A DNA stretch of 64,000 bases from an uncultured virus (IMG/VR IMGVR_UViG_3300020442_002637) (IMGVR_UViG_3300020442_002637), one strand, 5' to 3'. Shown: positions 37,870 through 64,000, counted from the first letter of the stretch. The notes: generated from the letters alone by a model not told the origin. Made by a program: numbers and translations.

Positions 37870-37881
37870 TCCATATATTGC

Positions 37882-37910: not shown

Positions 37911-37932
37911 ATAGTCATATTGGAGATATATT

Positions 37933-38265
37933 ATGGATTCAAGATTAGATAAAGCACTAGAATTTAGTAATTATATGACTACCTTAAACAATCAAAAAAG
38001 ATTGTTATGGGAAAACTATCAACAAAACTTAGTGTATTACTTTAATGGCGGCAAATTTACAATTACTACCGACTTAATTTCTTTCCTAGAAGCGGTAAAG
38101 TATGACAGTTATGTTCTAATAGATGATAATAATTTACCAGTGAAAGTAGATACACGAAAATTTTTATTAGACATTAGGATTAAACACCAAAAAGCAACAA
38201 CAGAGTATTACGAAGAATATTCAAAAATCAAATCTAAAAGGAAAGTTGAGGATTTAATTGCATAA
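37933..38265 (+). CDS. Hypothetical protein (110 aa)
   Basis: Promoter and RBS upstream; TAATG overlap with the next gene. Confidence 0.75.
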   Translation: MDSRLDKALEFSNYMTTLNNQKRLLWENYQQNLVYYFNGGKFTITTDLISFLEAVKYDSYVLIDDNNLPVKVDTRKFLLDIRIKHQKATTEYYEEYSKIKSKRKVEDLIA

Positions 38266-39077
38266 TGACTTCTGGAGTATTACTTTTTGCATACAATAAT
38301 TCTCATATTGACTATGCTAAACACGCTATTTTTTGTGCTAAAAACGTAAAAAAATTTTTAAACTTGCCTGTATCACTTGTTACAGATTCAAAAAATTATC
38401 TACAAAAGCAGTACACTCAACATATAGATGTTTTTGATAGTATAATTGATGACAAAACGTCAACCGAGCAAATTAAAAAGTTCTATAACGGTAAGCAGTA
38501 TAAGAAACTAACTTGGAACAACCATAGCAGACCTAATGCTTATGACCTGACACCTTATGAAAAAACTTTAGTTATGGACACTGACTACATTGTATCTAAC
38601 AATAGTTTATTAAATTGCTTTGATGATGACAGAATAAAAATTACAAAAGATTTTGTCGATCTATGTAGTGAAAGAGATGACAAAACGCTATTACGAGTAA
38701 GTGATTATTCTATTCCAATGCTTTGGGCAACAGTATTTTACTTCTCAAAAGCCAGTAAAAGCAGTAAAATACTGTTTGACTTGATAAAACATATACAGGA
38801 AAATTGGAATTTTTATAGATTACAGTATCAAATTGTGGGAAAAAACTATAGAAATGACTTTGCATTTTCTATAGCATTGCATATAATGTCTAATCCACAA
38901 GTAGACTTACCGGGCACACATTATTATACTACTGATAGAGATAAGTTATACAAGGGAAATGGAAATTCATTTCAATTCTTTCTTGAAAATCAAACAGCAT
39001 GTGGCATTCATAATCAAAATATTCATATGATGAACAAATTTGATTTAAACGAACATATTGATAAGGTAATGCAATGA
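38265..39077 (+). CDS. GT-A fold glycosyltransferase (GT8-like)
   Basis: YDLTPYEKTLVMDTD (DxD motif), WATVFYF, RNDFAFSIA. Confidence 0.7.
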   Translation: MTSGVLLFAYNNSHIDYAKHAIFCAKNVKKFLNLPVSLVTDSKNYLQKQYTQHIDVFDSIIDDKTSTEQIKKFYNGKQYKKLTWNNHSRPNAYDLTPYEKTLVMDTDYIVSNNSLLNCFDDDRIKITKDFVDLCSERDDKTLLRVSDYSIPMLWATVFYFSKASKSSKILFDLIKHIQENWNFYRLQYQIVGKNYRNDFAFSIALHIMSNPQVDLPGTHYYTTDRDKLYKGNGNSFQFFLENQTACGIHNQNIHMMNKFDLNEHIDKVMQ

Positions 39078-39895
39078 GTAAAGGATTCTGTTTAATAGCT
39101 CAGAATAATGAAACAACAGATTATGTAAAACAAGCATGTCTGTTAGCAGTAAGTATACACAAATATTCAAAAAATCAATCTGTATCTATTATTACAAATG
39201 ATAAAATACCAAAAAAGTATCAAGTTTTGTTTGATAAAATTATACCAATTAAGGATGATGAAGCAAAACACAGCGATTGGAAATTAGAAAACAGATACAA
39301 ACTTTATGATTTGACACCATATAATCAAACCATTGTTATGGATGTAGATATGATTATGACTGGAGACATTTCTCATTGGTGGAAATATCTAAAAAATTAC
39401 AATTTGTTTTTTGTATCCAATGTAACTACTTACAGAAATGAAAAAATAAAATCTAATTACTATAGAAAAACATTTCAGGCAAATGATCTACCAAATATTT
39501 ACTGCGGTATTTTTTATTTTAAAAAAAATAAATTTTCAAAAGCATTTTTTAATTTATTAGAAGTAATTACACATAATTGGGAAAAATTTTACAGTGAATA
39601 TGCACCCGTATACAAACAAAAATGGTACAGTATGGATGTTAGCTGTGCTATTTGTTGTAAAATATTAGGTATAGAAAAAGAAATTACTGATAAAAATAAT
39701 TTTATTACTTTTGTCCATATGAAACCCCATATTCAGGGATGGGCAAATGTGCCGTTAAAATGGACAAATGTTTTAAATTGGCAAATTAACAAAAACAAAC
39801 AACTTTACATAGGAAATTATTTGCAGAATAATGTTTTTCATTATACTGAAGATGAATTTTTAGACGAAAAAATTATAGAGGCATTAGAAACATGA
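39074..39895 (+). CDS. GT-A fold glycosyltransferase (GT8-like), paralog
   Basis: YDLTPYNQTIVMDVD (DxD motif), YCGIFYF, HMKP, FHY. Confidence 0.7.
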   Translation: MSKGFCLIAQNNETTDYVKQACLLAVSIHKYSKNQSVSIITNDKIPKKYQVLFDKIIPIKDDEAKHSDWKLENRYKLYDLTPYNQTIVMDVDMIMTGDISHWWKYLKNYNLFFVSNVTTYRNEKIKSNYYRKTFQANDLPNIYCGIFYFKKNKFSKAFFNLLEVITHNWEKFYSEYAPVYKQKWYSMDVSCAICCKILGIEKEITDKNNFITFVHMKPHIQGWANVPLKWTNVLNWQINKNKQLYIGNYLQNNVFHYTEDEFLDEKIIEALET

Positions 39896-40440
39896 TTTTT
39901 TGTGCAATTTTTGATATGAAAACAGGAAAAGTTACAGGTATTTCTAACAATCCTGATCCAACTAGTACTCATGTTGAAATATCAAGAGAATTATATTCTA
40001 AATTTGTAAATGTAGAAGAAGATATAAACAATTATATTGTTATCAATGAAAATAAAAAGTATCAAATTATAAAAAAAGGCAAGGAATTTGTCGAAGAAGT
40101 TGCAAATGAAAATGTAATACCTTTAAAAAAGTTTTTCAAGTTACAAGACTCTATGAACATATTTCAAATTGTACAAGATAAAGAAAGATGGTATGCATAT
40201 GGAAAATTTACAGATGACTATATGAAATATTTGATCACAAATCCAAATCTTTTTGCTAGAGATAGAATTTTATACTTAACAGAAAAAAATGATGCAAGGA
40301 AACTTTTAGAAACATGCCAAATCTCAGCCGAAAAGTTTATTGATAACAGTGTTCCTAGTTTAAATATTAAAACTTCTAAGCAAGTGGACATATTCATGTC
40401 TAGTTCAGATTTAGAATTTATACATGTGGTAATGAAATGA
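39892..40440 (+). CDS. Hypothetical protein (182 aa)
   Basis: ATGA overlaps with both neighbours; no motif recognised. Confidence 0.7.
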   Translation: MIFCAIFDMKTGKVTGISNNPDPTSTHVEISRELYSKFVNVEEDINNYIVINENKKYQIIKKGKEFVEEVANENVIPLKKFFKLQDSMNIFQIVQDKERWYAYGKFTDDYMKYLITNPNLFARDRILYLTEKNDARKLLETCQISAEKFIDNSVPSLNIKTSKQVDIFMSSSDLEFIHVVMK

Positions 40441-43079
40441 AATTAAATGTTGCAGATTGTGATGTAGTGTATCTAAGTTATGATGAACCTAACGCTGAAA
40501 AAAATTATGCAGATATACTGACAAAAATTCCTTGGGCAAAACGGATTCATGGAGTTGAAGGCAGTGATGCCTCACACAAAGCCTGTGCTAAAATTTGTGA
40601 AACTGAAAGATTTATTACCGTCGACGGTGATAACATTGTTCAACCAGAATTTATTAATCAAACTGTTAACTTTATTCCAGGAGTTGATATAAAAAGAAAT
40701 GTGATAAGTTGGACAGGTTACAATGTAATAAACGGATTGATGTACGGTAATGGCGGCATTAAATGTTGGGATAGACAAACTGTATTAGAAATGAAAACAC
40801 ATGAAAATGCGGATCCAGATAACATAGGTGCCCAGTTAGATTTCTGTTGGGATTTAGAATATATTCAGATGAGTGAATGTATGAGTACTGTAGAAAATAA
40901 TTTTACTCCCCATCAAGCCTGGAGAGCAGGATTTAGAGAAGGTGTAAAAATGTGTTTAGTTGAAGGAGTTAAACCATCTCTAGAAGATTTTAAAGGTGTG
41001 CATTGGAAAAATAGACACAGACAATATGTATGGACTATGATAGGAGCAGATGTTAAAAACGGACTTTGGGCTGTGCTTGGAGCAAGACAAGGTGCATATA
41101 TGACAATGCTTACAGATTGGAATTATGTAAACGTTCGGGATTTTGAATATTTAAACAGCCTATATGAAAAACAGGTAAAAGCAATTACAAATGATAAAGA
41201 ACGTGATGAACTAATTTGGTTTTATGGAAATGAAATTATTAAACACCTAGAAATGCCTATTGCAAAAACACCATTTGACGAAGAACAAAGTAAATTTTTT
41301 AAAAAAGTCTATCAAAATCCGCCACGTATTAGACATCCATTTATTGCAAATACAAAAATAAAAGAAAAAAATTATGATATGTTTATGATTACGTACAATG
41401 AACCTAATGCAAATGAAAATTATGCTAGGTTAAAGGACAAGTATCCTAACTTAAAACGTATTCATGGTGTAAAAGGCATTCCTAATGCACACAAAGCGGC
41501 CGCTGAAATTTGTGAAACAGATATGATGTGGATAATAGACGGTGATGCTGAAATTCTTGATAGTTTTAGATTTGATTATGAAGTACCATTATCTGAAAAA
41601 GATGCTGTACATGTTTGGCGAAGTATTAACCCAATAAACGATTTAGAATATGGGTATGGCGGAGTCAAGTTACTGCCTACAGAATTAACAAGACAATTAG
41701 ATGTAAATCGTGTAGATATGACAACAAGTATCAGCACTAAGTTTAAGAAAATGGAAAGAATTAGTAATATTACTGCATTTAACACAGATCCTTTTAACAC
41801 ATGGAAAAGTGCATTTAGAGAGTGTGCAAAATTAAGCAGTAAAGTAATTGATAGACAAAAGGAGGATGAAACAAATGCAAGACTTAAAACTTGGACAACC
41901 GTGGGACACGATAGACCATTTGGCGAATACGCTTTGGCAGGCGCTACCGCTGGTATGGAGTTTGGCCTTTCTGATGGGGCTGACCTTAGGTTAATAAATG
42001 ATTTTGATTGGTTGCAAGAACAATTTGATAATCAAGAAAACATAACTTATGATAAACAAAATTTAAATTTAGACAGCTTCATAGTTGACATGCTTGATAG
42101 ATTTGAATTGCTGTATGGTGATAAAGTAGAAAATCTTCGTAGAATGTATAACAGTAATGACTTATCGAGTATATTTAAATTGACTGATAACGAAGATTTA
42201 AGAAAAGCAGTGATTGAAAAAAATTTACACAGTGTATTTAGGTTAACCGGAGCAGACGAAGAACTTAGAAAAGCAGTGCTTGAAAAGAATATTCACAGCA
42301 TTTTTAGGTTGTGCAATGCTGATGAAGAATTAAGAAAAGCAGTGATAGAAGAAAACTTGTACAGTATTTCTAGATTACTTCCAGAAATTGCTGATGAATT
42401 TAAAATTATTGCAAATGACAGACATGCATTATGGCGAGTGTTAGAAAAGTATACAAATAGTAAATTTGTCAAGCCGCTCAAAAGTTTAGACAATATTGAT
42501 TTAGATTGTTTCAGCAGAGGACAGATTGCAAGTAAAAAATGGCTTATTGAAGAACTAAAAAAAGTAGACAAAAGTTTGGGAACTGTATTTTTATGTGCAG
42601 GGTGGTATGCAACTGTTGTTCCTATGATAGAAGAAGCTAATATAGAATTTGATAAAATCCGTAGCTTTGATATAGATACAGATGTTTGGAAAATAGCTGA
42701 AGTTTTCAATAAAGATTTAGTGTTAGATGATTGGAAATTCAAAGCAAGTACACAGGATATACATGATATAAATTACAATGTACACAAATATGAAACTACA
42801 AAAAGCAACGGAGATATCGAAACACTAAAAGACAGTCCTGACACGATAATTAATACCAGTTGTGAACATATAGAAAACTTTGATAGTTGGTATGCTAAGT
42901 TACCGACAGGAAAACTTGTTATATTACAAAGTAATAACTACTTTGATATACCTGAACATGTTAATTGTGTACAGGATATAAAACAGTTTGAACAGATGAC
43001 ACCTATGCAGGAAGTTTACTTTACAGGTGAATTAAAATTAGAAAAATACACGAGGTACATGAGAATTGGAATTAAATAA
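40437..43079 (+). CDS. Fusion protein: two tandem GT-A-like domains + helical repeats + class I SAM methyltransferase-like domain
   Basis: Y(D/N)EPNA..NY...RIHGV.G...HKA.A.ICET...DGD occurs twice; C-terminal VFLCAGWYA, RSFDID, IINTSCEH, LQSNNY. Confidence 0.7.
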   Translation: MKLNVADCDVVYLSYDEPNAEKNYADILTKIPWAKRIHGVEGSDASHKACAKICETERFITVDGDNIVQPEFINQTVNFIPGVDIKRNVISWTGYNVINGLMYGNGGIKCWDRQTVLEMKTHENADPDNIGAQLDFCWDLEYIQMSECMSTVENNFTPHQAWRAGFREGVKMCLVEGVKPSLEDFKGVHWKNRHRQYVWTMIGADVKNGLWAVLGARQGAYMTMLTDWNYVNVRDFEYLNSLYEKQVKAITNDKERDELIWFYGNEIIKHLEMPIAKTPFDEEQSKFFKKVYQNPPRIRHPFIANTKIKEKNYDMFMITYNEPNANENYARLKDKYPNLKRIHGVKGIPNAHKAAAEICETDMMWIIDGDAEILDSFRFDYEVPLSEKDAVHVWRSINPINDLEYGYGGVKLLPTELTRQLDVNRVDMTTSISTKFKKMERISNITAFNTDPFNTWKSAFRECAKLSSKVIDRQKEDETNARLKTWTTVGHDRPFGEYALAGATAGMEFGLSDGADLRLINDFDWLQEQFDNQENITYDKQNLNLDSFIVDMLDRFELLYGDKVENLRRMYNSNDLSSIFKLTDNEDLRKAVIEKNLHSVFRLTGADEELRKAVLEKNIHSIFRLCNADEELRKAVIEENLYSISRLLPEIADEFKIIANDRHALWRVLEKYTNSKFVKPLKSLDNIDLDCFSRGQIASKKWLIEELKKVDKSLGTVFLCAGWYATVVPMIEEANIEFDKIRSFDIDTDVWKIAEVFNKDLVLDDWKFKASTQDIHDINYNVHKYETTKSNGDIETLKDSPDTIINTSCEHIENFDSWYAKLPTGKLVILQSNNYFDIPEHVNCVQDIKQFEQMTPMQEVYFTGELKLEKYTRYMRIGIK
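42168..42380 (+). repeat. Three 66-bp (22-aa) tandem repeats
   Basis: AGAAAAGCAGTG at 42201, 42267 and 42333; protein repeat E(E/D)LRKAVxExNxxS. Confidence 0.9.
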
Positions 43080-43296
43080 TTTGACTATAAGAGAATTGCA
43101 GAAAGAAAGTGCTATGGCTTTGAGCACCATGCAGGCAACAAACAATAACATATGGCAGTTCAACAAGAAGGCTCATCATAACAGCCATAACTGGTACCGA
43201 GCTGTGATTGAATGGTATGTAGGTCAATATGGTGATCTACCTAGTCGCATAGGTCCTGGTAAAGATGTAAAGTTGGTTTTAGATGATAGTAGATAA
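43066..43296 (+). CDS. Small hypothetical protein (76 aa)
   Basis: Overlaps both neighbours; GAGG upstream; start in the ORF track is a TTG. Confidence 0.6.
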   Translation: MELNNLTIRELQKESAMALSTMQATNNNIWQFNKKAHHNSHNWYRAVIEWYVGQYGDLPSRIGPGKDVKLVLDDSR

Positions 43297-44005
43297 AGAA
43301 CCATTTTTCAAGGTAATTTATGCTGATGAATATACTTTTGAACCAGGAGGAGAATATAAAAATTACAGAAAGTTGAGAAAGCGGATGGGTCCTCGGTGGA
43401 AGTACTACGACTATAAATCAAACCCTATTGTTACTACAATCAATGAATTAGGGTATAGAAGTAAAACAGTATATCCTACGGAGGAATATTATATTGCTTT
43501 AGGGTGTAGCAATACATTTGGGCAATATTTGCACGAAGAAGAGAGATATAGTAATATTATTGAAAAGCAAACGGGTATACCTGTGATTAATTTAGGAATA
43601 TGTGGCGGATCAGCAACCAGCACTTTTACTAACATATGTAAATTATTTTATAGTAATTATCCAAAGCCAAAAGCTGTGTTTATACAATGGCCAGAACAAA
43701 ATAGACTGTCTGCCAACGGAGATAGAAGAATTAGATTAGTAAACGCTCATATGCCTAAACAAGATGTATTTGCTTTTTTTGTAAAAGATAACAGCTTAGA
43801 AGTCATGTCTAAATTTTGTTATGATATGACTCATAAGATCTGCGATGTGCCTATTATAGAGTTTGCAATTAATGATTGGGTTGCTAATTTTTATGGTGTA
43901 GAAGAAGTAGTTAGACTAGACAAAGCAAGGGATAACCAACATTGTGGCGAAAAAACAAACAATAAAATGGCAAGTTATATATTAGATAGGTTGAAGTATG
44001 CGTAA
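43283..44005 (+). CDS. SGNH/GDSL-like hydrolase or acyltransferase
   Basis: ALGCSNTFG (block I), NLGICGGS (block II), DNQH (DxxH). Confidence 0.65.
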   Translation: MIVDKEPFFKVIYADEYTFEPGGEYKNYRKLRKRMGPRWKYYDYKSNPIVTTINELGYRSKTVYPTEEYYIALGCSNTFGQYLHEEERYSNIIEKQTGIPVINLGICGGSATSTFTNICKLFYSNYPKPKAVFIQWPEQNRLSANGDRRIRLVNAHMPKQDVFAFFVKDNSLEVMSKFCYDMTHKICDVPIIEFAINDWVANFYGVEEVVRLDKARDNQHCGEKTNNKMASYILDRLKYA

Positions 44006-45606: not shown

Positions 45607-45607
45607 C

Positions 45608-48757: not shown

Positions 48758-48760
48758 GTA
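48755..48760 (+). promoter_or_regulatory. Late-type promoter variant TAAGTA, 5 nt before ATG
   Basis: TAAGTA-ATTGT-ATG (48766); overlaps the upstream stop codon. Confidence 0.45.
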
Positions 48761-48765
48761 ATTGT

Positions 48766-58506: not shown

Positions 58507-59188
58507 TTACCTGTTCTAACGCCCATTCCCTTTCATTACACCACCAACACTGACCGCAAGTTGATGTAAAATTATCTGTGAGGTCCTCAGAACCTTCACA
58601 TGATCTTGTCAATGGAAGCAATGTATTTAATAGATTATTTTTTTTGTACATATCTATGACAAATCTTTTATCTACCATTGCAAAGGGGATAGTTTCAACT
58701 GTATCTTTGTAGATGCTTTTTCGTGTGGGAGTATCTCTATCTTTTTGTCTAACTTGATCTTTAAATGTTTTCATCACTTCAAAAGAAGGATTTTTAGTTT
58801 TACCACTAAAGAAGTGATCTAACAAATTATTTTCTAACATAAATCTAGTATAATATCCAAATACTTTTGCTTTACGATCATCTCCTTGTTCGATCTCATC
58901 CATTGCAATAGTAAATTTATATATCTGACCAAAGTTTTTATATCCTGTGGATTTTTTAATTTCTTCTACTATTTTTTTTACTTTTTCTTGACTCCAAGGA
59001 CGTACTTGCCAATTACAACTAAAAGGGTGTAGAATAATGTCACTGTCAATTTCTTTTAAATGTTTTGCTACAAGATAGCATAATATAGCACTATCCGCAC
59101 CACCACTCATGCTTATTCCTAGTTTTTTTATATTTCTTGGAATTTTGATGTGAGCGGATTGGCCAAAACTGTCAGTAAGTAATATCAT
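58499..59188 (-). CDS. QueC-like PP-loop ATP pyrophosphatase
   Basis: MSGGADS; TKNP; TRSCE...CGQCWWCNER. Confidence 0.75.
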   Translation of the reverse strand: MILLTDSFGQSAHIKIPRNIKKLGISMSGGADSAILCYLVAKHLKEIDSDIILHPFSCNWQVRPWSQEKVKKIVEEIKKSTGYKNFGQIYKFTIAMDEIEQGDDRKAKVFGYYTRFMLENNLLDHFFSGKTKNPSFEVMKTFKDQVRQKDRDTPTRKSIYKDTVETIPFAMVDKRFVIDMYKKNNLLNTLLPLTRSCEGSEDLTDNFTSTCGQCWWCNEREWALEQVND

Positions 59189-59202
59189 GAGTTCTCCATA
59201 TA

Positions 59203-59210
59203 GTTAAATA
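59203..59210 (+). promoter_or_regulatory. Late promoter motif GTTAAATA (rightward)
   Basis: Upstream of an AGGA RBS and ATG 59238. Confidence 0.6.
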
Positions 59211-59215
59211 CTTTA

Positions 59216-59223
59216 TATTTATA
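59216..59223 (-). promoter_or_regulatory. Perfect T4-type late promoter TATAAATA (leftward)
   Basis: Plus strand reads TATTTATA; upstream of a GGAG RBS and ATG 59188. Confidence 0.75.
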
Positions 59224-59237
59224 GGACCTGACCAAAT

Positions 59238-60311
59238 ATGTATATGAGACCTGAAACAATAGAAGAATTGCATGTGGAAGTTACAAATAAATGTAACGCC
59301 GCATGTCCTATGTGTGATAGAAATATACACGGAGGCGTTGATCGCCCTGGGCGGGGACTGAGTGAATGGTCGTTAGAAGATATAAAAAAAGTCTTTACAG
59401 GATTACCTAATCTTAAATTTGTGTATTTCTGTGGTACACATGGAGAGCCTTTAGCCTCAAAAAACATATTTGAAGCAATTAAAGCCGCTAAAGATACTGG
59501 CGCAAGAATGGAAATGTTTACCAATGGAAGTTTAAAAAATAAAACATGGTGGGAAAAATTAGTTTCAATATTAGATAAAAATGACAGAATAACGTTTGGT
59601 GTTGATGGCATAGAAACAAATCATTTATATAGGCAAAATACGGATATTAATAAAATTTTAGAAAATATGAAAATTTGTTGCGGTGCAGATGTAAAAGTAA
59701 GATGGGATTATCTTGTTTTTAAACATAACGAACATGAAATGGAAAAATGTAAAAAAATTGCAAAAGAAATGGGCGTAAATAATTTTCGTTTTCGCAGAAC
59801 CGCAAGATTTGACAGGCATATAAAGTATCCTGTATTTGATAAAAATTTTAATGTAACACACTATTTAGAACCACCAGAAGCAGAAGAATACAGACATCCT
59901 AGTATACAAGAAATGGAAATGATTTTAGAAGATTTAAAAATGAAAGGTCAAAGACGTTTTAACATGACGGATTTTGAATACGAAGATAGGCCACTACCTA
60001 AAGATTGGAAAATTAATTGTTTGTATCAAGAAGCAAAAAAAATATATGTAAACAATAGAATGGAAGTTTTTCCTTGTTGTTATATTAGTGATGACAACGA
60101 AACTTTTAAGATGCTTACAAATGCTGAACTCAAATATCCTAGAGGTGAACTTACTTTAAGAGATAAAACATGGACAGAAATTTTAGACCATAAGTACTTC
60201 TCTAAACAACTTGTAGAAAGTTGGAAGAAAACTAACGTACCACCTAGATGTATACGAGTATGTGGAGCAATAAAACGAGAACAAGAACAAAATGTTAAAG
60301 TTGAACTTTGA
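59238..60311 (+). CDS. Radical SAM protein (subfamily A)
   Basis: CNAACPMC, CGTHGEP, FTNGS, FGVDG, PCC, CIRVC. Confidence 0.92.
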   Translation: MYMRPETIEELHVEVTNKCNAACPMCDRNIHGGVDRPGRGLSEWSLEDIKKVFTGLPNLKFVYFCGTHGEPLASKNIFEAIKAAKDTGARMEMFTNGSLKNKTWWEKLVSILDKNDRITFGVDGIETNHLYRQNTDINKILENMKICCGADVKVRWDYLVFKHNEHEMEKCKKIAKEMGVNNFRFRRTARFDRHIKYPVFDKNFNVTHYLEPPEAEEYRHPSIQEMEMILEDLKMKGQRRFNMTDFEYEDRPLPKDWKINCLYQEAKKIYVNNRMEVFPCCYISDDNETFKMLTNAELKYPRGELTLRDKTWTEILDHKYFSKQLVESWKKTNVPPRCIRVCGAIKREQEQNVKVEL

Positions 60312-60340
60312 TTGACAAATGAACAAATTGGTGCTATACT
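60312..60340 (+). promoter_or_regulatory. sigma70-type promoter with extended -10, probably leaderless
   Basis: TTGACA (60312-60317), 17 nt spacer ending TGC, TATACT (60335-60340); ATG at 60347. Confidence 0.85.
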
Positions 60341-60346
60341 AGAGAC

Positions 60347-61459
60347 ATGATTGAAGACTTAAAATGGAGTAACTATGACTTTTCTAAAATTCCTTTTGAC
60401 GACATTGTACAAGTCGGACAGAGGACGCTTTTATACAGAGACTTGTTTACTGTTAGTTGGCTTCTTGGTCGCTTTTGCAACTATCGTTGTAGTTATTGTT
60501 GGCCATACGCCAGATCAGATAAGAAAGATCACAGGCCAACAGAGCTCTGTCTTTATACAATCGATGAGGTAAAGAGACAAGCTCGTGATAATGGTTTTAA
60601 CAGTTTTCATTTTAGCTTATCTGGGGGTGAGCCTACTTTCCATCCAGGATACTTGGACATCCTTAGGCATCTGGCTTCTGATGTCCACAATACTAATTAT
60701 ACTAGTATCCACATGACATCTAATTGTTCAAGACCTGTAAAATGGTTTGAACAATATGTTGAATATGCAAAACCTTTTCATAGAGCAAGTATTACTGCAA
60801 GTTTACATACTGAACATGTTAACACAAAAGAAAAAATGCAGGACTTTGCTAACAAATTAATATTATGTCAAGAACATGATGTGCAAGTAACAATTAACAT
60901 GGTTATGGTACCAGATTGGTTTGAGAGAGATTGGGAAAACGCTTTATTTTTTCACGAACAAGGAATTAACGTCACTCTTAAACCGCAGTCCGATCCTACC
61001 GCGTCTAGAGTAGTTGATGGATATACTGATGAACAAATGAAACGCTTGTGGAACGGCATGCCACAGCGTAGTTATACAGAAAGTAAACGCAAATGGGAAG
61101 GCAGACCTAAGCCTAGTTTTGAAATACCTGACTACACTATAGGTAGGAATGATGCTAGTGTGCCTTGGCACATGCAGGTAGAACTTACAGACTCTAAAGG
61201 TAAAAAGTGGTATATGGACCAAGCAGAACGCTTTAATGCCTTTAATTTCAACAATTTCGAAGGATGGGAATGTAACGCCGGTTTTAGCGGAATAATAATA
61301 CGGGAGCCTGATGGTTCGGTAAAAAGGAGCTATTCATGCCATGATGCACCTCTTGGCAACATTGAAACAGGTTTTACCTTGTTTAAAGAGCCAAAAGCCT
61401 GTATTACAAAAAGTTGTGTAAGTTCAGCTGATAGTAAGATACCAAAAGTAAAGCGATAA
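60347..61459 (+). CDS. Radical SAM protein (subfamily C)
   Basis: WLLGRFCNYRCSYC, SGGEPT, MTSN, C-terminal WECNAG...SC...CITKSC. Confidence 0.92.
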   Translation: MIEDLKWSNYDFSKIPFDDIVQVGQRTLLYRDLFTVSWLLGRFCNYRCSYCWPYARSDKKDHRPTELCLYTIDEVKRQARDNGFNSFHFSLSGGEPTFHPGYLDILRHLASDVHNTNYTSIHMTSNCSRPVKWFEQYVEYAKPFHRASITASLHTEHVNTKEKMQDFANKLILCQEHDVQVTINMVMVPDWFERDWENALFFHEQGINVTLKPQSDPTASRVVDGYTDEQMKRLWNGMPQRSYTESKRKWEGRPKPSFEIPDYTIGRNDASVPWHMQVELTDSKGKKWYMDQAERFNAFNFNNFEGWECNAGFSGIIIREPDGSVKRSYSCHDAPLGNIETGFTLFKEPKACITKSCVSSADSKIPKVKR

Positions 61460-61462
61460 ATA
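61455..61462 (+). promoter_or_regulatory. Late promoter motif GATAAATA
   Basis: CGATAAATA, identical to the motifs before gp6 and fibre 3; followed by an AGGAGGT RBS. Confidence 0.7.
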
Positions 61463-61484
61463 CTATTATAATAGGAGGTGACAT

Positions 61485-62138
61485 ATGGAACATACCGAAA
61501 TTAAAAAAGCAGTTATTAGAAGTCAACATTGTCAACGCAATTGGGATCTTGACAAAGAAATACCACAAGAGGATTTAGATTTAATTATACACGCAGCGAC
61601 ACAATGTCCTAGCAAACAAAATGTTGCTTTTTATAAAGTACATTTTATAACAAATAGAGATATGATAGAAGCTGTTCATGATCAGACAGAAGGATTTTCT
61701 GCTAATCACGAAGCTGGAGAGTTTGAAACAAATAGTCAGACATTAGCAAATTTATTGATTGCATTTGAAGAAGAAGACTTTGATCATGCTCGTCAAGAGG
61801 ACAATGCTTCATGGAGAAATGAACAAATCGATGCTTATGATGGTAACAAAATGAAAGCATCGCATAAAAAAGCTCTGACACGTGATACATTCATGGCGAT
61901 TGGTATTGCAGCAGGTTATGTAAATTTAACTTCAAGTATGCTAGGTTATGGAACAGGTTGTTGTGCATGTTTTGATGAATACGCAGTCGCTGAAACAATC
62001 GGAGCAAAAAATCCGATAAAACTTTTAATGGGTGTAGGTTTTAAGAATGCAGGAAAGAACAGACGAGTACATCACAAAACAGATTTTATTTTTCCAACAA
62101 AGACTAAGCAACCTATAACTGTAAATCATATAGGATAA
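61485..62138 (+). CDS. Nitroreductase-family flavoprotein
   Basis: RSQHCQRNWD, AATQCPSKQN, GIAAGYVNLTSSMLGYGTGCC, LLMGVG. Confidence 0.8.
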   Translation: MEHTEIKKAVIRSQHCQRNWDLDKEIPQEDLDLIIHAATQCPSKQNVAFYKVHFITNRDMIEAVHDQTEGFSANHEAGEFETNSQTLANLLIAFEEEDFDHARQEDNASWRNEQIDAYDGNKMKASHKKALTRDTFMAIGIAAGYVNLTSSMLGYGTGCCACFDEYAVAETIGAKNPIKLLMGVGFKNAGKNRRVHHKTDFIFPTKTKQPITVNHIG

Positions 62139-62147
62139 GACAGTTAA

Positions 62148-62804
62148 ATGGTAAATGAAAATACGGTTAATTACTTGACGCTAACTGCGTTCGGAAATCA
62201 TTTTGAGTTAAAACAAACTTTTAATGATAACAGAAAATTTATTCAATGGACAGAAGATAATTTTGAATACGTTAGATATAATCCTAGAAAAAATGTTGAC
62301 CGTTGGGGGTTAAGTATAACCAGCTTGGACGGAGGACTATCTGGTATTCCTGATTTAGATAGTCTTACTGAATATAATTACGAACAAGGTAATTTTAATA
62401 CAGAAAATTTTATTAAAGAAACGGATATAAATGTTCCTACTCCTATCTATGACTATCCTGGAATTAAAGAATTATGTGATGAATGGCAACCATATCTATT
62501 TAGGACACATATTATTAAATTAAATCCTGGAGGATATTTCCCACCACACCGAGATCATACCAATAGTAATTTTGAAAGTTTTAGGCTAATTATGCCGTTG
62601 TTTAATTGTAGTTATCCTAGTGTTACTTTTATTAGCGATGAAAAAATCCTAAATTGGAATGAAGGAAATCTATACTTTTTAGATACAGTCAAGGTACATT
62701 ATTTGTTCAATTGCAGCCCACAACCTAGTTATTGGCTTATAATGAATATCGGTACAAATGAAGAAACAATACAAAAAGTAATATCTAGCGTAGCAATAAC
62801 CTGA
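62148..62804 (+). CDS. 2OG-Fe(II) oxygenase, Asp/Asn beta-hydroxylase-like
   Basis: LNPGGYFPPHRD (HxD), EGNLYFLDTVKVH. Confidence 0.7.
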   Translation: MVNENTVNYLTLTAFGNHFELKQTFNDNRKFIQWTEDNFEYVRYNPRKNVDRWGLSITSLDGGLSGIPDLDSLTEYNYEQGNFNTENFIKETDINVPTPIYDYPGIKELCDEWQPYLFRTHIIKLNPGGYFPPHRDHTNSNFESFRLIMPLFNCSYPSVTFISDEKILNWNEGNLYFLDTVKVHYLFNCSPQPSYWLIMNIGTNEETIQKVISSVAIT

Positions 62805-63622
62805 TGCAATCAAAAATTAAAACATTACTTACAAAAAATCCTTGGGTTCAGTGTCCGATGATACCGCAAGTTCAAGATGTAATAAACAATGTTCAAATTA
62901 CTGATTTTGTTAGAGGTTCTGGTAAAGCACGAAAGCGTTTAGACGAACTAGAATCTAGATATAGATTATGGGTTAAAGATATCATAGATCTTAAAGATTT
63001 TCATTATTGCTATTTTGTTAATGGAGTAACAGATGCTTTAAACCAGTGGATTGCAACAGAAGATAGACCTTGGCAGTTCTTACAAGGAGATTATGAATAC
63101 GCCCATATGATTAGTGGCAAAGGAAATAAGGTATCTTATATAAATTCTTCAGATGTCTTATATGTGTCTAACCCTGCATGTTCGACAGGAAATTTTATAA
63201 ATTTAAAAGATATACCTAATCCAGTGATTTTAGATTGTGCTTATATAGGCAGTACACAAAAAAATAAAATAATGGTGCCTGAAAATACAGAACAGATATG
63301 GTTTAGTTTTTCTAAAGGTTGGGGAATAGTAGGACAAAGATCCGGATTGGTATTTTCTAAATTACCTCATAAAAGTTTAGACATAATGAAAAACGTCGAA
63401 GCTTGGAACTATACAGCAGTAGAAACATCACTTGCAATCGTTGATAATTTTGATATTGATACTACTTATAACATGTACAGAGACAAGCAAATAGAAGTTT
63501 GTAAAAAATATAATTTAGATCCTAGTGATTGTTTTTTTATTGCGAACACCACAAATGATGAATTTAAGGAAAGACGCAGAATAAGTAAAATTGCTAGGTT
63601 AGACATATCTAAATTATTATAA
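62804..63622 (+). CDS. PLP-dependent fold-type I enzyme (aminotransferase/decarboxylase-like)
   Basis: NGVTDAL, SNPACSTG, ILDCAY, SFSKGWG (Schiff-base Lys), GQRSG. Confidence 0.75.
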   Translation: MQSKIKTLLTKNPWVQCPMIPQVQDVINNVQITDFVRGSGKARKRLDELESRYRLWVKDIIDLKDFHYCYFVNGVTDALNQWIATEDRPWQFLQGDYEYAHMISGKGNKVSYINSSDVLYVSNPACSTGNFINLKDIPNPVILDCAYIGSTQKNKIMVPENTEQIWFSFSKGWGIVGQRSGLVFSKLPHKSLDIMKNVEAWNYTAVETSLAIVDNFDIDTTYNMYRDKQIEVCKKYNLDPSDCFFIANTTNDEFKERRRISKIARLDISKLL

Positions 63623-63623
63623 C

Positions 63624-64000
63624 ATGCAAAAAAAAACTAAAATCTTATTAGCCTCGATATCTTTTTCTGCTTACGAATGGCTTCCTTATCCAGTAGGTTG
63701 CTTGATAAGTCACTGTAAGAAAGACGCCAAAATTAATGAGATGTACGAGTTTATGGATCCAGAATATCGGAGCCAAAGTTTAGATAAAGATGATTTTCAT
63801 GAAAACTTAAAACAAGCAGATATGCTCGGACTTACAAATTGGGTGTGGAATCAAAATTACAACGATCGAATTTCAAAATTATATAAAGAATACAGACCTG
63901 ACGGATTAGTAATTTATGGCGGAACAAATGTTCCAGAAGAAAAAGAAGCATCGATAGTTTATGCACAAGAAAGACCTTATGTTGATATTTTCTTTACAGG
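63624..64000 (+). CDS. Cobalamin-binding-domain protein, probably a radical SAM N-terminus (runs off window)
   Basis: Manual translation: MQKKTKILLAS...WLPYPVGCL...GLTNWVWNQNYN...IYGGTNVP...PYVDIFFTG. Confidence 0.7.
   Translation, partial: MQKKTKILLASISFSAYEWLPYPVGCLISHCKKDAKINEMYEFMDPEYRSQSLDKDDFHENLKQADMLGLTNWVWNQNYNDRISKLYKEYRPDGLVIYGGTNVPEEKEASIVYAQERPYVDIFFT

What the first reader, a model, noticed from the sequence alone, without database searches (positions are those of the whole stretch)
37933..64000. Phage-encoded ~26 kb biosynthetic island with at least 11 radical SAM enzymes next to the tail module
Seen: 11 complete CxxxCxxC proteins plus a partial B12-binding one, 3 QueC-like enzymes, 3 HxD..H oxygenases, 4 GT-A domains, and methyltransferase-, SGNH-, kinase-, nitroreductase- and PLP-like genes, mostly translationally coupled and directly after the fibre genes. 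Established: this enzyme mix is typical of glycan-tailoring, RiPP or hypermodification clusters, while known T4-like modification loci use only a few enzymes. Inference: a multi-step pathway making an unknown modification, most simply a heavily tailored glycan or PTM on virion proteins. A DNA base, host surface polymer or small molecule is also possible.
Basis: partly seen in the sequence, partly recalled or inferred. Interest (0 to 1): 0.92.

Follow-up and report, generated by a model that had tools for sequence, protein, structure and literature searches.

The report
Radical-SAM sugar-tailoring island in marine jumbo phage
A marine giant phage carries, wedged between its tail-fibre genes, a large block of glycosyltransferases and at least eleven radical-SAM enzymes of unknown product, and close copies of the same enzymes fill the chromosomes of predatory Bdellovibrio-like bacteria.

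Summary
Window 37933-64000 encodes 11 complete radical SAM (rSAM) proteins plus a cut-off B12-rSAM. It also has three QueC-like PP-loop ATPases, three HxD..H proteins, four GT-A-type domains, a class I methyltransferase domain, a nitroreductase and a PLP-like protein. No transmembrane segment is predicted in any of them.

The phage is not T4-like. Its nearest cultured relatives are jumbo phages (PA5oct, Atu_ph07, Phosso), and related fragments imply genomes of about 350 kb. In 5 of 5 long relatives the island follows the same fibre genes. Its content is mosaic, and it carries promoter-like motifs of its own.

New here:
- Five rSAMs belong to NF033640, with an N-terminal twitch domain.
- The 880-aa protein is a GT-A/GT-A/methyltransferase fusion, the same domain order as chlorovirus A064R.
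- The rSAM/PP-loop/oxygenase set recurs at 45-71% identity in Bdellovibrionota chromosomes, which hold 10-16 NF033640 genes each, often beside sugar genes.

Best reading (0.45): cytoplasmic synthesis and radical tailoring of an unusual glycan. The acceptor is unknown (virion fibres or host envelope). No precursor peptide and no DNA-base transferase were found. No product is shown.

The parts
37882..37910 (+). sigma70-type promoter motif TTGACA-N17-TATACT in the 63-nt gap between the last fibre gene and the first island gene
   Evidence: One of only 2 exact matches in the window (0.08 expected by chance). It is the best + strand hit of the scan. The exact motif sits at the same junction in relative G002 (L150:2452-2480) but was not found in G005.
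37933..38265 (+). 110-aa protein of unknown family, first island gene
   Evidence: No hit in any library. Best-hit homologue in 20 of 80 viral loci and at the same place in G002 and G005.
38265..39077 (+). GT-A-like nucleotide-diphospho-sugar transferase candidate (270 aa)
   Evidence: No Pfam hit. Atlas neighbours are named nucleotide-diphospho-sugar transferase (0.97), with Glyco_transf_8 in 27% of one cluster (a lead only). An orthologue lies next to the fibre gene in 5 of 5 long relatives.
39074..39895 (+). paralog of the previous GT-A-like protein (273 aa)
   Evidence: BLASTP 28% identity, E 4e-16. phrog_1903, function unknown.
39892..40440 (+). 182-aa protein, unknown
   Evidence: Chance-level hits only.
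40437..43079 (+). 880-aa fusion: GT-A module A (residues 4-300), GT-A module B (313-535), 22-aa repeats (about 545-650), class I SAM methyltransferase module C (665-880)
   Evidence: The modules occur as separate genes elsewhere. Module A: pLDDT 90, GT-A fold, VIA Z 10.4. Module B is homologous to A. Module C: pLDDT 89, methyltransferase fold, Foldseek probability 1.0. A 66-bp tandem repeat lies at 42190-42355.
43066..43296 (+). conserved 76-aa ORF overlapping the stop codon of the fusion gene; unknown family
   Evidence: Homologues at E 1e-28 to 1e-41 in 62 of 80 viral loci, always just after module C. 21 invariant columns in 38 sequences. No Pfam, PHROG or PADLOC family.
43283..44005 (+). 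240-aa protein, weak DUF6473/SGNH-like
   Evidence: PF20078, E 6.9e-5, below cut-off.
43998..44537 (+).
   Evidence: No hit in any library.
44530..45606 (+). radical SAM, group II (C-terminal Cys-rich, PCCW motif)
   Evidence: phrog_21308. CxxxCxxC at residue 18. Paralog of 46359 and 59238. Best hit in 76 of 80 viral loci.
45578..46417 (+). QueC-like PP-loop ATPase
   Evidence: PP-loop hit, E 8e-4, below cut-off. SGGADSA and C-terminal CGECWWC seen. Paralog of 56231 and 58499.
46359..47459 (+). radical SAM, group II
47456..48757 (+). radical SAM, group III (MoaA/viperin-like core only)
   Evidence: The pVip match is partial (profile positions 4-150 of 257).
48766..53907 (+). four tandem N-terminal-twitch radical SAM genes (48766-50181, 50129-51361, 51351-52730, 52708-53907)
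   Evidence: NF033640 at 424, 233, 355 and 202 bits against a cut-off of 170. The Pfam SPASM match lies N-terminal of the rSAM core. Invariant Cys residues in the alignment.
53862..55055 (-). fifth N-terminal-twitch radical SAM
   Evidence: NF033640, 312 bits. 59-71% identical to genes in Bdellovibrionota MAGs.
55055..55615 (-). 186-aa HxD..H protein (WHND ... IHRA)
   Evidence: Motif seen. No family hit. Homologues follow the 53862-type gene in Bdellovibrionota loci.
55603..56367 (-). 254-aa HxD..H protein (MHSD ... LHSA); the mechanical start probably lies too far upstream (137-nt overlap)
   Evidence: Weakly related to 55055 (E 0.001).
56231..56995 (-). QueC-like PP-loop ATPase
   Evidence: QueC 19.6 bits against a cut-off of 22. 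Motifs seen. 44-45% identical to Bdellovibrionota genes.
56995..58506 (-). B12-binding radical SAM (class B)
   Evidence: PF02310 at 40 bits and PF04055 at 60 bits, both above cut-off. No equivalog reached. 67% identical to Bdellovibrionota genes. Tree.
58499..59188 (-). QueC-like PP-loop ATPase, first gene of the minus-strand cassette
59216..59223 (-). TATAAATA late-promoter-type motif upstream of the minus-strand cassette
   Evidence: 4 of the 9 ATAAATA in the window lie in the 873 intergenic bases (0.12 expected), each upstream of a gene on its own strand. The phage encodes a gp55-like late sigma factor.
59238..60311 (+). radical SAM, group II; best solved relative is BlsE
   Evidence: BlsE model, 1.3e-13, far below cut-off; 7vob, E 3e-9.
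60312..60340 (+). second sigma70-type promoter motif TTGACA-N17-TATACT
60347..61459 (+). radical SAM, group III
   Evidence: 66-76% identical to genes in MAG loci. No solved relative by sequence.
61485..62138 (+). nitroreductase-family flavoprotein
   Evidence: PF00881, 43.9 bits against a cut-off of 23.5.
62148..62804 (+). Asp/Asn beta-hydroxylase-like cupin (HRD ... H)
   Evidence: PF05118, 29 bits against a cut-off of 22.6. Motif seen.
62804..63622 (+). 272-aa PLP-enzyme-like protein (SFSKGWG)
   Evidence: Motif seen. Weak aminotransferase hit, E 0.007.
63624..64000 (+). N-terminus of a second B12-binding radical SAM, cut by the window end
   Evidence: NF033712, E 1.1e-5. PADLOC PDC-M51A, weak.

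Best explanation
The island is a genuine accessory module of a marine jumbo myovirus lineage with genomes of about 350 kb. Its position is conserved and its content is mosaic. It sits inside the fibre-gene region and has promoter-like motifs of its own.

It most likely encodes a soluble, cytoplasmic route to an unusual, heavily tailored glycan. The proposed steps are:
1. Four GT-A-type domains and a class I methyltransferase attach and O-methylate sugars. Two of the GT-A domains and the methyltransferase are fused in one 880-aa protein, as in chlorovirus A064R.
2. Three families of radical SAM enzymes (five with an N-terminal twitch domain, three group II, two group III) and one or two cobalamin-dependent ones carry out radical steps on the sugars or sugar nucleotides. 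Candidate reactions are C-methylation, epimerisation, dehydration, decarboxylation and C-C bond formation.
3. QueC-like PP-loop enzymes activate carboxylates with ATP, for example turning uronic acids into amides or nitriles.
4. Cupin oxygenases, a flavin nitroreductase and a PLP enzyme add further tailoring.

Shown here: the folds and families, the linkage, the conservation, and the shared gene set with Bdellovibrionota.
Inferred: the substrate class.
Open: the acceptor. It may be the phage's own fibres or virion, or a host envelope precursor reachable from the cytoplasm.
For: Enzyme content:
- GT-A fold of module A: pLDDT 90; Foldseek hits RmlT, PBCV-1 A64R domain 1 and SunS at probability 0.98-1.0; VIA Z 10.4.
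- DGD motifs and an 'ITYNEPNA' stretch are visible. That the latter resembles the GT2 signature is my own recollection, not a tool result.
- Module B is homologous to A. Module C has a methyltransferase fold.
- The GT/GT/methyltransferase order matches A064R as described in passages of PMC9614988.
- ORFs 38265 and 39074 are GT-A leads.
- No island protein has a convincing membrane segment (maximum 19-residue hydropathy 1.78).

Genes beside N-twitch rSAM genes in cellular genomes:
- GT2 in 8 loci, carbamoyltransferase in 4, FdtA sugar isomerase in 4, an SDR-like protein in 11.
- Also UDP-Glc/GDP-Man dehydrogenase, AsnB, PMT_2, KdsA-like and SIS.

Related phage islands:
- They add a cytidylyltransferase and methyltransferases.
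- Epimerase-family genes occur in 3 of 5 related records.

Other support:
- The best solved relative of group II rSAM 59238 is the sugar-nucleoside enzyme BlsE (E 3e-9).
- The island follows the fibre genes in 5 of 5 long relatives.
- Near-identical contigs from RNA libraries lie on 39074, the GT modules and 44530. DNA carry-over is not excluded.
Against: - The window's island has no classical nucleotide-sugar enzyme: no NTP_transferase (0 of 5 related records) and no epimerase/dehydratase or DegT hit inside the window's island.
- There is no flippase, polymerase or initiating transferase.
- In several Bdellovibrionota loci (L083, L086) a 16-gene cluster of rSAM, PP-loop and oxygenase genes has no glycosyltransferase within 10 kb. 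The radical enzymes therefore do not need the GTs nearby.
- Related islands also hold a tryptophan halogenase, fatty-acid desaturases and a hydroxylase, an AMP-ligase, a class IV aminotransferase and GMP reductase. These fit a mixed-function hotspot or another substrate class.
- No rSAM here reaches the cut-off of any characterised sugar-modifying family.
- GT-A and nucleotidyltransferase folds are not cleanly separated by Z-score (MobA Z 9.7).
- No product, acceptor or activity is shown.
Confidence: 0.45

Rival explanations
1. There is no single product. The site between the fibre blocks is a recombination hotspot where unrelated auxiliary cassettes accumulate (sugar, lipid, nucleotide, halogenation, radical SAM sets). 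The 26 kb is a collection of independent small modules.
For: - Content differs strongly between relatives that share the flanks.
- Relatives carry a halogenase, desaturases, a fatty-acid hydroxylase, SAM decarboxylase, GMP reductase and an AMP-ligase.
- The window's island has at least three promoter-like motifs and a cassette on the opposite strand.
- That cassette has its own close relatives in Bdellovibrionota and is present in only 2 phage rows of the tree.
- Pelagimyophages were reported to gain and lose 'radical SAM cassettes' in their fibre-region island (PMC7029224, passages).
Against: - A core recurs together in most of the 80 viral loci: GT modules 71, the 76-aa ORF 62, 44530-type 76, 48766-type 80 (by construction), 60347-type 45.
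- The same rSAM, PP-loop and oxygenase families co-cluster again in bacterial chromosomes. That argues for functional coupling of at least that set.
Confidence: 0.2
2. The radical SAM enzymes are protein or peptide maturases (RiPP-like, or PTM of large structural proteins such as the fibres). They would install crosslinks, epimerisations or C-methylations, with the nitroreductase, hydroxylase and B12-rSAM playing the roles they have in proteusin- or TOMM-type pathways.
For: - The best named models for several rSAMs are peptide maturases: RiPP C-methyltransferase TIGR03975 at 2.3e-25 for 56995; PapB, StsB and SkfB for the twitch group.
- SPASM/twitch domains are typical of peptide maturases (established knowledge).
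- An Asp/Asn hydroxylase family member is present.
- The island sits among fibre genes.
- A conserved 76-aa ORF exists.
Against: - All those matches are far below the curated cut-offs.
- No RRE/PqqD family, peptidase or exporter appears among the Pfam hits.
- The 76-aa ORF is conserved over its whole length, has no Cys, and was not found in the Bdellovibrionota loci.
- A search for conserved small ORFs (18-99 aa) in 68 cellular loci found no family in more than 3 loci.
- Bacterial clusters lack phage fibres.
Confidence: 0.12
3. The target is a nucleotide or DNA. This could be hypermodification of phage DNA bases (sugar plus further tailoring), or production of modified nucleotide or nucleoside analogues, in the manner of 7-deazapurines or viperin products.
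For: - Three QueC-like enzymes sit beside QueE/MoaA/viperin-like rSAM cores.
- GT-A enzymes and a methyltransferase are present.
- A sigma70-type (early-type) promoter motif lies at the island start. T4's DNA-modifying enzymes are early genes (established knowledge).
- A PLP-like enzyme and rSAMs recall thymidine hypermodification clusters (recalled, not tested).
Against: - No TGT/DpdA in 0 of 5 related records, which are fragments.
- QueC scores are below cut-off, and no FolE, QueD or QueE equivalog was found.
- pVip matches cover only the rSAM core.
- 10-16 paralogs per bacterial genome in several arrays beside sugar genes is not what DNA-modification systems look like.
Confidence: 0.1
4. 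The target is a lipid or cofactor. This could be remodelling of lipid A or membrane lipids (LpxO/OlsC-type hydroxylase, desaturases) or support of tetrapyrrole/cobalamin chemistry.
For: - The Asp/Asn hydroxylase family includes lipid hydroxylases (established knowledge).
- Desaturases, a fatty-acid hydroxylase and NMO occur in relative G005.
- A PKS lies next to N-twitch rSAM genes in 4 Limisphaerales/Acidobacteria loci.
- GDGT-MAS is among the solved relatives.
- hemC and SufE are elsewhere in the window.
Against: - No membrane segment is predicted in any island protein.
- The lipid genes are absent from the window's own island.
- hemC is in 1 of 5 and SufE in 0 of 5 relatives.
Confidence: 0.07
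5. Artefact: host DNA misassembled onto a phage contig.
For: High similarity of several genes to bacterial MAG genes.
Against: - Composition is uniform across the window.
- The same fibre-to-GT-to-rSAM order holds in 5 of 5 long related viral records.
- In G002 and G005 the island is closed by another fibre gene.
- 17 runs from several studies hold at least half of the junction stretch.
- An independent contig (X8, record 27) bridges 37381-38353.
Confidence: 0.01

Closest known systems
Chlorovirus PBCV-1 A064R and the virus-encoded capsid glycosylation machinery (PMC9614988, passages read)
   Same: - A large virus encodes soluble glycosyltransferases of its own.
- One protein carries GT, GT and class I methyltransferase domains in that order.
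- A64R domain 1 is among the structural matches of module A (probability 0.99-1.0).
   Different: - There is no sequence similarity, and A064R domain 2 is not GT-A.
- Chloroviruses have no radical SAM battery.
- The acceptor here is unknown.
- The host is a bacterium.
Host recognition cluster of pelagimyophages and cyanomyophages (PMC7029224, passages read)
   Same: - A hypervariable island inside the structural and fibre region of marine myoviruses.
[quoted passage not shown]
- Its authors proposed modification of the host O-chain.
   Different: - This phage's nearest cultured relatives are jumbo phages, not HTVC008M or cyanophages.
- The paper gives no count, family assignment or function for the radical SAM genes.
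- GT8 dominates there.
NCBIfam NF033640, twitch domain-containing radical SAM protein (N_Twi_rSAM)
   Same: Five island proteins score 202-424 bits against a cut-off of 170, over the full model length.
   Different: - The family has no described substrate.
- No paper in the library describes it. Searches were 'twitch domain-containing radical SAM' (6 papers listed by title and abstract start; none reads as being about this family) and 'N-terminal twitch' (0 papers).
Radical SAM sugar and nucleoside tailoring enzymes (BlsE, BtrN, class B C-methyltransferases such as TokK)
   Same: - Twitch/SPASM or B12 architecture.
- BlsE is the best solved relative of 59238, and TokK is among those of 56995.
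   Different: E-values of 1e-9 or weaker over the core only, and no equivalog cut-off reached. The resemblance does not fix a substrate.
7-deazaguanine pathway (QueC/QueE) of phage DNA modification
   Same: PP-loop plus a C-terminal four-Cys motif like QueC, with radical SAM partners.
   Different: - QueC scores are below cut-off.
- There are three divergent paralogs.
- No TGT/DpdA was found in related records.

Membership tests
NF033640 N-terminal twitch radical SAM | Whole-protein score above the curated cut-off (170 bits) over the full model | tested here: met
   424, 233, 355, 202 and 312 bits for 48766, 50129, 51351, 52708 and 53862(-). Model positions 1-4 to 393-397 of 398.
NF033640 N-terminal twitch radical SAM | CxxxCxxC SAM cluster motif preceded by an N-terminal Cys-rich twitch/SPASM-like domain | tested here: met
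   CxxxCxxC at residues 117-149. The Pfam SPASM match lies at residues about 7-97, before the rSAM core. Invariant Cys at positions 9, 27, 28, 71 and 74.
Class B (cobalamin-dependent) radical SAM | B12-binding domain followed by a radical SAM core | tested here: met
   For 56995(-): PF02310 at 40.2 bits (cut-off 32.1) and PF04055 at 59.7 bits.
Class B (cobalamin-dependent) radical SAM | Membership of a named, characterised subfamily (RiPP C-methyltransferase, PhpK, BchE, BzaD ...) | tested here: not met
   Best scores are 81-89 bits against cut-offs of 282-750.
QueC (7-cyano-7-deazaguanine synthase) | Pfam/NCBIfam score above cut-off | tested here: not met
   PF06508 at 19.6 and 21.6 bits (cut-off 22) for 56231(-) and 58499(-), and 13.3 for 45578. 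No QueC equivalog in NCBIfam.
QueC (7-cyano-7-deazaguanine synthase) | PP-loop SGGxDS and a C-terminal zinc-type four-Cys motif | tested here: met
   SGGADSA and C...C..C..C seen in all three translations. That these are the QueC motifs is recalled knowledge.
QueC (7-cyano-7-deazaguanine synthase) | Pathway partners (TGT/DpdA) in the same genome | tested here: inconclusive
   PF01702 in 0 of 5 related records, which are 28-47% complete. The window itself has none.
Prokaryotic viperin (pVip) | Full-length match, including the C-terminal nucleotide-binding extension, above cut-off | tested here: not met
   NF038283 reaches at most 47 bits against a cut-off of 180. PADLOC pVip matches cover roughly the N-terminal half to three-quarters of the 257-position profile, reaching at most position 187.
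RiPP biosynthetic cluster | A precursor peptide gene conserved with the maturases | tested here: inconclusive
   No small-ORF family occurs in more than 3 of 68 cellular loci. The phage 76-aa ORF is conserved end to end and was not found in Bdellovibrionota loci. Precursors encoded elsewhere are not excluded.
RiPP biosynthetic cluster | RRE/PqqD-like leader-binding domain, leader peptidase or exporter | tested here: inconclusive
   None among the Pfam hits at E <= 0.01. HMMs are known to miss RREs.
GT-A glycosyltransferase | GT-A (nucleotide-diphospho-sugar transferase) fold | tested here: met
   Module A: VIA Z 10.4 (rmsd 3.2 over 138-141 residues) to GT-A enzymes; Foldseek probability 0.98-1.0. 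Nucleotidyltransferases of the same superfold score Z 9.7.
GT-A glycosyltransferase | DxD metal/nucleotide-sugar motif | tested here: met
   Invariant D63-G64-D65 in module A. D56 and D58 are invariant in module B. VMDTD/VMDVD occur in 38265 and 39074.
GT-A glycosyltransferase | Sugar transfer to a defined acceptor | not testable with these tools
   Needs biochemistry.
Class I SAM-dependent methyltransferase | Rossmann-like methyltransferase fold | tested here: met
   Module C: at least 500 Foldseek matches at E <= 0.001, all methyltransferases at the top. TM 0.5-0.57.
Pelagimyophage host recognition cluster | Variable island within the fibre region carrying GTs and rSAM cassettes | tested here: met
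   description in PMC7029224.
Pelagimyophage host recognition cluster | The phage belongs to the HTVC008M-like/T4-like marine myoviruses | tested here: not met
   Best tblastn hits are Phosso, Atu_ph07 and SCTP-2 (36%) for the baseplate wedge and the PA5oct group (49%) for SbcC-like. CheckV estimates imply about 350 kb.

The most novel reading that the evidence does not exclude
Arrays of N-terminal-twitch and allied radical SAM enzymes, together with QueC-like ATPases and cupin oxygenases, form a previously unrecognised radical-chemistry toolkit that diversifies a surface glycan or another surface polymer. Predatory Bdellovibrionota (10-16 copies per genome) and a cosmopolitan lineage of marine jumbo phages share this toolkit and exchange cassettes. 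The phage uses it to hyper-modify either its receptor-binding fibres or the envelope of the infected cell. That would be a new class of sugar-modifying radical enzymes and a new kind of phage-encoded glycan machinery.
Probability: 0.3. Interest if true: 0.9.

Novelty: new variant of a known kind. Interest (0 to 1): 0.78.

Why it matters
- Eleven or more radical SAM genes in one phage locus is far beyond any described phage modification system. The dominant family here (NF033640) has no known substrate.
- The same set is expanded in Bdellovibrionota chromosomes and is widespread in marine viral contigs (147 related stretches). That gives two experimental entry points, culturable predators and heterologous expression, to new radical carbohydrate chemistry or other radical chemistry.
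- If the product decorates fibres or the infected cell surface, it bears on host range and superinfection exclusion in abundant marine phages.
- The finding also shows that 'radical SAM cassettes', noted only in passing in marine myovirus islands, are organised, conserved and exchangeable units.

Tried and rejected
- Own assembly: not held. The nearest record, G001, is a 27-kb fragment with no NF033640 match.
- tblastn of the 48766 protein against cultured phages: only 3 weak hits at 22-24% identity.
- Profile searches of modules A and C against PDB sequences: nothing meaningful. Folds were needed instead.
- The combined alignment A5 of the whole 880-aa protein looked misregistered and was not used for folding.
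- Complex prediction of module C with the 76-aa protein: 'no answer', score 0.00. This says nothing either way.
- Atlas structure search: unavailable for both queries.
- Host inference from hemC: best identity to 151 sampled Bdellovibrionota genomes is only 40-42%, in 102 of 151. hemC therefore gives no host signal. No other phylum was searched for contrast.
- No tRNA genes in the window.
- SufE (0 of 5) and hemC (1 of 5) are not conserved in related records, so I dropped 'Fe-S/tetrapyrrole support for the island' as an argument.
- PADLOC: only partial pVip, QueC and PDC-M51A matches.
- Overall counts of sigma70-like sites are at chance level (93 found against 93.4 in shuffles; 73 against 88.5). 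Only the exact TTGACA-N17-TATACT pair is above chance.
- Terminator scan: nothing at island borders.
- RNA-library contigs leave many bins of the island uncovered. This is not evidence of silence.
- An all-against-all BLAST of all loci timed out and was redone on the cellular loci only.
- Literature: no paper links jumbo phages with radical SAM islands (4 papers listed, none relevant by title or abstract). The Bdellovibrio + radical SAM + glycosyltransferase search gave 1 irrelevant paper. PMC12801897 mentions a single cyanophage rSAM as an 'antibiotic synthesis gene' (passages).

Full report
**What is in the window**

Bases 1-37869 are clearly phage.
- At the left end lie an SbcCD-like nuclease pair and a gp55-like late sigma factor (4481-5326, minus strand; phrog_12791, E 1.5e-78).
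- Then come baseplate hub and wedge genes, a 5247-aa ORF (15009-30752), and four to five fibre or collar genes ending at 37869.
- hemC and SufE sit at 401-1650 on the minus strand.
- G+C is 0.28-0.37 throughout, with no break at the island.

**Which phage**

- The baseplate wedge protein (11428-15009) matches Sinorhizobium phage Phosso, Agrobacterium phage Atu_ph07 and Salicola phage SCTP-2 best, at about 36% identity. Rak2-like phages follow. No cyanophage or pelagiphage appears among the organism names given for the 100 records.
- The SbcC-like protein matches the 287-kb Pseudomonas phage PA5oct group best, at 49%.
- Five long related viral records (102-169 kb) are rated 28-47% complete by CheckV, which implies genomes of about 350 kb.
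- This is therefore a marine jumbo myovirus lineage, not a T4-like pelagi- or cyanomyophage.
- The pelagimyophage paper PMC7029224 (passages) describes an analogous fibre-region island with glycosyltransferases and 'radical SAM cassettes'. That is the closest thing in print, but it concerns another phage group.

**Checking the observation**

- Radical SAM (rSAM): eleven complete ORFs carry one CxxxCxxC each. All match Pfam Radical_SAM, eight of them above the gathering score. The ORF cut by the window end is the start of a second B12-binding rSAM.
- The eleven fall into groups:
  - five N-terminal-twitch proteins of NCBIfam NF033640 (202-424 bits, cut-off 170);
  - three 'group II' paralogs (44530, 46359, 59238; 28-32% identical);
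  - two loosely related MoaA/viperin-core-like proteins (47456, 60347);
  - one class B enzyme (56995).
- Paralogs are only 20-32% identical, so these are old, differentiated enzymes and not recent duplicates.
- The three QueC-like proteins share SGGADSA and a C-terminal four-Cys motif, but they stay just under Pfam's QueC cut-off.
- The three HxD..H proteins are seen at motif level. Only 62148 passes a family cut-off, as an Asp/Asn hydroxylase.
- The nitroreductase is solid.
- The PLP-like call rests on an SFSKGWG motif.
- The SGNH-like call rests on a sub-threshold DUF6473 hit.
- The kinase-like call has no support.

**The glycosyltransferase block**

- The 880-aa protein is a fusion of three modules that are separate genes in many relatives.
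- Module A was folded from a 16-sequence alignment (pLDDT 90). It has a GT-A fold. Foldseek returns RmlT, PBCV-1 A64R domain 1, SunS/ThuS and WrtF at probability 0.9-1.0. VIA gives Z 10.4 to GT-A enzymes, and Z 9.7 to MobA-type nucleotidyltransferases of the same superfold.
- An invariant D-G-D and the N-terminal 'YDEPNA/YNEPNA' stretch fit a GT2-like enzyme. The GT2 motif comparison is recalled, not tested.
- Module B is homologous to A (hhalign probability 100, E 7e-56).
- Module C (pLDDT 89) is a class I SAM methyltransferase fold.
- A 22-aa repeat lies between B and C. It corresponds to a 66-bp tandem repeat with 2.5 copies, and its copy number varies among relatives.
- GT, GT, then methyltransferase in one chain is the architecture of chlorovirus A064R. 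That enzyme builds and methylates the end of the capsid N-glycan (PMC9614988, passages).
- ORFs 38265 and 39074 are paralogs. Their Atlas neighbours are called nucleotide-diphospho-sugar transferases (score 0.97; Glyco_transf_8 in 27% of one cluster; a lead only).

**A missed gene**

- The apparent 203-nt gap after the fusion gene holds a 76-aa ORF (43066-43296) that overlaps the fusion gene's stop codon.
- Homologues at E 1e-28 to 1e-41 follow module C in 62 of 80 viral loci, and in L124. They are also present in G002 and G005.
- It has 21 invariant columns, no Cys, and is conserved to its last residues.
- No library knows it.
- It looks like a small folded partner protein rather than a precursor peptide.

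**Conservation and linkage**

- A scan of IMG/VR with the 48766 protein found 147 related stretches; 80 loci at 79-93% identity were kept.
- Counting best hits within up to 10 kb on each side, the recurrent core is:
  - the GT/methyltransferase modules, 71 of 80 loci;
  - 44530-type rSAM, 76;
  - 46359-type, 51;
  - 51351-type, 49;
  - 47456-type, 47;
  - 53862-type, 45;
  - 60347-type, 45.
- Genes further than 10 kb from 48766 are under-counted.
- Five long records carry 9-16 Radical_SAM matches each, clustered.
- In all five, the order is fibre gene (35375 orthologue), then GT-A-like gene (38265 orthologue) within 2-4 kb, then the rSAM cluster.
- In G002 and G005 the island spans about 35 kb and is closed by a fibre gene on the opposite strand with an Mtd_N domain. 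The island is therefore embedded in the fibre region.
- Content between the anchors is mosaic. Relatives add methyltransferases, a second nitroreductase, a class IV aminotransferase, a tryptophan halogenase, GMP reductase, an AMP-ligase fragment, a cytidylyltransferase, two fatty-acid desaturases, a fatty-acid hydroxylase, SAM decarboxylase and NMO.

**Not an artefact**

- Seventeen runs hold at least half of the sampled words of 36500-46400, and the 20 holding runs come from 7 studies.
- Two DNA runs from different studies cover all 30 bins of 34001-54000.
- A 973-nt contig of X8 bridges the fibre/island junction (37381-38353) with 6 differences.
- Two seawater metatranscriptome runs, both from one study, yield contigs with 1-3 differences on 39074, both GT modules and rSAM 44530. 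This is compatible with transcription, but DNA carry-over cannot be excluded.

**Transcription signals (sequence-based inference only)**

- The exact pattern TTGACA-N17-TATACT occurs twice in the window, against 0.08 expected. Both copies lie in rare intergenic gaps and point at downstream genes. One is at 37882-37910, just before the first island gene. The other is at 60312-60340.
- The first is present at the same junction in G002 but was not found as an exact match in G005.
- The late-type core ATAAATA occurs 9 times, and 4 of these fall in the 873 intergenic bases (0.12 expected). They lie upstream of a virion gene (5405), the baseplate wedge (11428), a fibre gene (35375), and, as a full TATAAATA, the minus-strand cassette 59188-53862.
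- With a gp55-like sigma factor encoded nearby, the fibre genes look 'late'. The main plus-strand part of the island looks like its own host-sigma70-type unit, and the minus-strand cassette looks late.
- Timing therefore does not decide between a virion and a host target. Chlorovirus GT genes are also expressed early, according to PMC9614988.

**The bacterial connection**

- A scan of one genome per prokaryotic species with the twitch-rSAM alignment gave 248 related stretches. The best 80 form 68 loci. By my count of the record titles, 51 of the 68 are from Bdellovibrionota (Bdellovibrionales, Pseudobdellovibrionaceae, Bacteriovoracaceae, Oligoflexia and others). Contigs of 0.9-3 Mb are among them.
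- The scan pattern came from the query's own motif and only the best hits were kept, so this share is biased.
- The flanks of these loci are housekeeping genes such as EF-G, MurC-like, MutS, L25 and PRPP synthetase.
- Five such genomes (1.9-3.1 Mb) hold 10-16 matches to the model each at E <= 1e-10, nearly all above the family cut-off, in several arrays.
- In an even sample of the phylum, 31 of 151 genomes are positive, against 0 of 14 control genomes.
- The other island families co-cluster there too.
  - In L083-L088 a conserved block reads: PP-loop (56231-type), 51351-type, 46359-type, B12-rSAM (67% identical to 56995), 53862-type (59-71%), 55603-type, 55055-type. These are the genes of the window's minus-strand cassette.
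  - In a quick tree of the B12-rSAM, 15 rows were used. I dropped hits scoring 150 or less or 350 aa or shorter, and one identical row. The window and L020 pair (SH-aLRT 100) falls in a group with six Bdellovibrionota rows (SH-aLRT 92, below the 95 mark), with two more Bdellovibrionia rows outside. The root is at the midpoint only, and four other phage rows sit on long branches.
  - This fits a fairly recent import of that cassette from that gene pool. Direction and host are not proven.
- hemC gives no host signal (40-42% identity).
- Some short MAG contigs with phage-like G+C are probably misbinned phage fragments: L131 at 88% identity, L124, and perhaps L099.

**What the neighbours say about chemistry**

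- Recurrent non-island families next to the bacterial arrays are:
  - an SDR-like protein (11 loci);
  - GT2 (8);
  - Asp/Asn hydroxylase-like proteins (5 + 3);
  - carbamoyltransferase (4);
  - FdtA sugar ketoisomerase (4);
  - QueC/AsnB-like proteins (4);
  - also UDP-Glc/GDP-Man dehydrogenase, AsnB, PMT_2, a KdsA-like enzyme, SIS and GFO/IDH/MocA.
- This leans to sugar and surface-polysaccharide chemistry.
- Against a simple reading, L083 and L086 have 16-gene clusters of rSAM, PP-loop and oxygenase genes with no GT within reach. Four Limisphaerales/Acidobacteria loci pair the rSAMs with a PKS.
- A search for conserved small ORFs in the 68 cellular loci found none in more than 3 loci. No RRE, peptidase or exporter is seen. 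The RiPP reading therefore lacks its defining parts, though it is not excluded.
- TGT/DpdA was not found in 5 related, incomplete records, and the viperin matches are core-only. The DNA and nucleotide readings are therefore weak.
- No island protein has a predicted membrane span. Whatever is made is made in the cytoplasm.

**Verdict**

- The most likely function (0.45) is cytoplasmic assembly and radical tailoring of an unusual glycan, with the acceptor unresolved.
- A mixed-cassette hotspot (0.2), protein/peptide PTM (0.12), nucleotide/DNA chemistry (0.1) and lipid/cofactor chemistry (0.07) remain live.
- No paper found in six literature searches assigns a substrate to NF033640 or describes such arrays in jumbo phages or Bdellovibrionota.
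- Supplements of the papers I read were not opened, so gene tables of PMC7029224 might list similar rSAM genes.

Noticed in passing
window 401-1650 (-): The phage carries porphobilinogen deaminase (hemC; Pfam E 3.9e-63) and SufE (E 9.4e-29) next to its SbcCD-like genes. hemC recurs in 1 of 5 long relatives and SufE in 0 of 5 (all fragments). A link to the Fe-S and cobalamin demand of the island is tempting but unsupported.
   Followed up: partly
window 4481-5326 (-); motifs at 5378, 11405, 35346 (+) and 59222 (-): There is a gp55-like late sigma factor. The ATAAATA core is strongly enriched in intergenic gaps (4 of 9 occurrences in 873 of 64000 bases), each upstream of a gene on its own strand. 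This is a likely late-promoter consensus for this jumbo-phage lineage.
   Followed up: partly
window 15009-30752 (+): A single 5247-aa ORF lies between the baseplate wedge gene and the fibre genes. Relatives have 2022-4459 aa of it within the fetched stretches. It was not analysed further.
   Followed up: no
G007-G011 (genomes behind L088, L101, L096, L094, L092); sample G012-G161: NF033640 is massively expanded in some Bdellovibrionota. Genomes of 1.9-3.1 Mb hold 10-16 copies, including tandem runs of 6-8 (for example L101:970-11260). 31 of 151 sampled genomes of the phylum are positive, against 0 of 14 control genomes.
   Followed up: partly
L099:1185-18257: Sixteen consecutive same-strand radical SAM genes sit on a 47-kb contig binned as Rickettsiales (G+C 0.35). 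One of them is 76% identical to window 60347. This may be a misbinned phage fragment or a second host lineage.
   Followed up: no
L131 (2.9 kb, 'Arcticimaribacter'), L124 (13.5 kb, 'Neisseriaceae'): Short MAG contigs carry 72-88% identical copies of the phage genes in phage order (GT modules, 76-aa ORF, 44530-type, 48766-type). They are probably phage fragments misbinned into MAGs.
   Followed up: partly
window 42190-42355; homologues in L036, L045, L052 and others: A 66-bp (22-aa, 'LRKAVIEKNLHS.FRL') tandem repeat lies in the linker between the second GT module and the methyltransferase. Copy number varies among relatives, giving proteins of 843-1127 aa.
   Followed up: partly
L151:16147-17514 (G002 148147-149514); L154:18101-19626; L155:5687-6145: Related islands carry a flavin tryptophan-halogenase homologue (Pfam E 7.9e-75), two fatty-acid desaturases and a fatty-acid hydroxylase. 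All are absent from the window's part of the island.
   Followed up: no
L103:8566-19726; also L105, L121, L130: In Limisphaerales and Acidobacteria MAGs, one or two N-twitch radical SAM genes sit next to a large type I PKS (NMO-KS-AT-ACP-KR, 2245 aa in L103) and FdtA or GFO/IDH/MocA sugar genes.
   Followed up: no
L152:5511-7980 (G002), L155:17391-19940 (G005): Just beyond the island and the closing fibre gene, relatives encode a DUF2201 metallopeptidase/VWA protein and an AAA (MoxR/CobS-like) ATPase pair.
   Followed up: no
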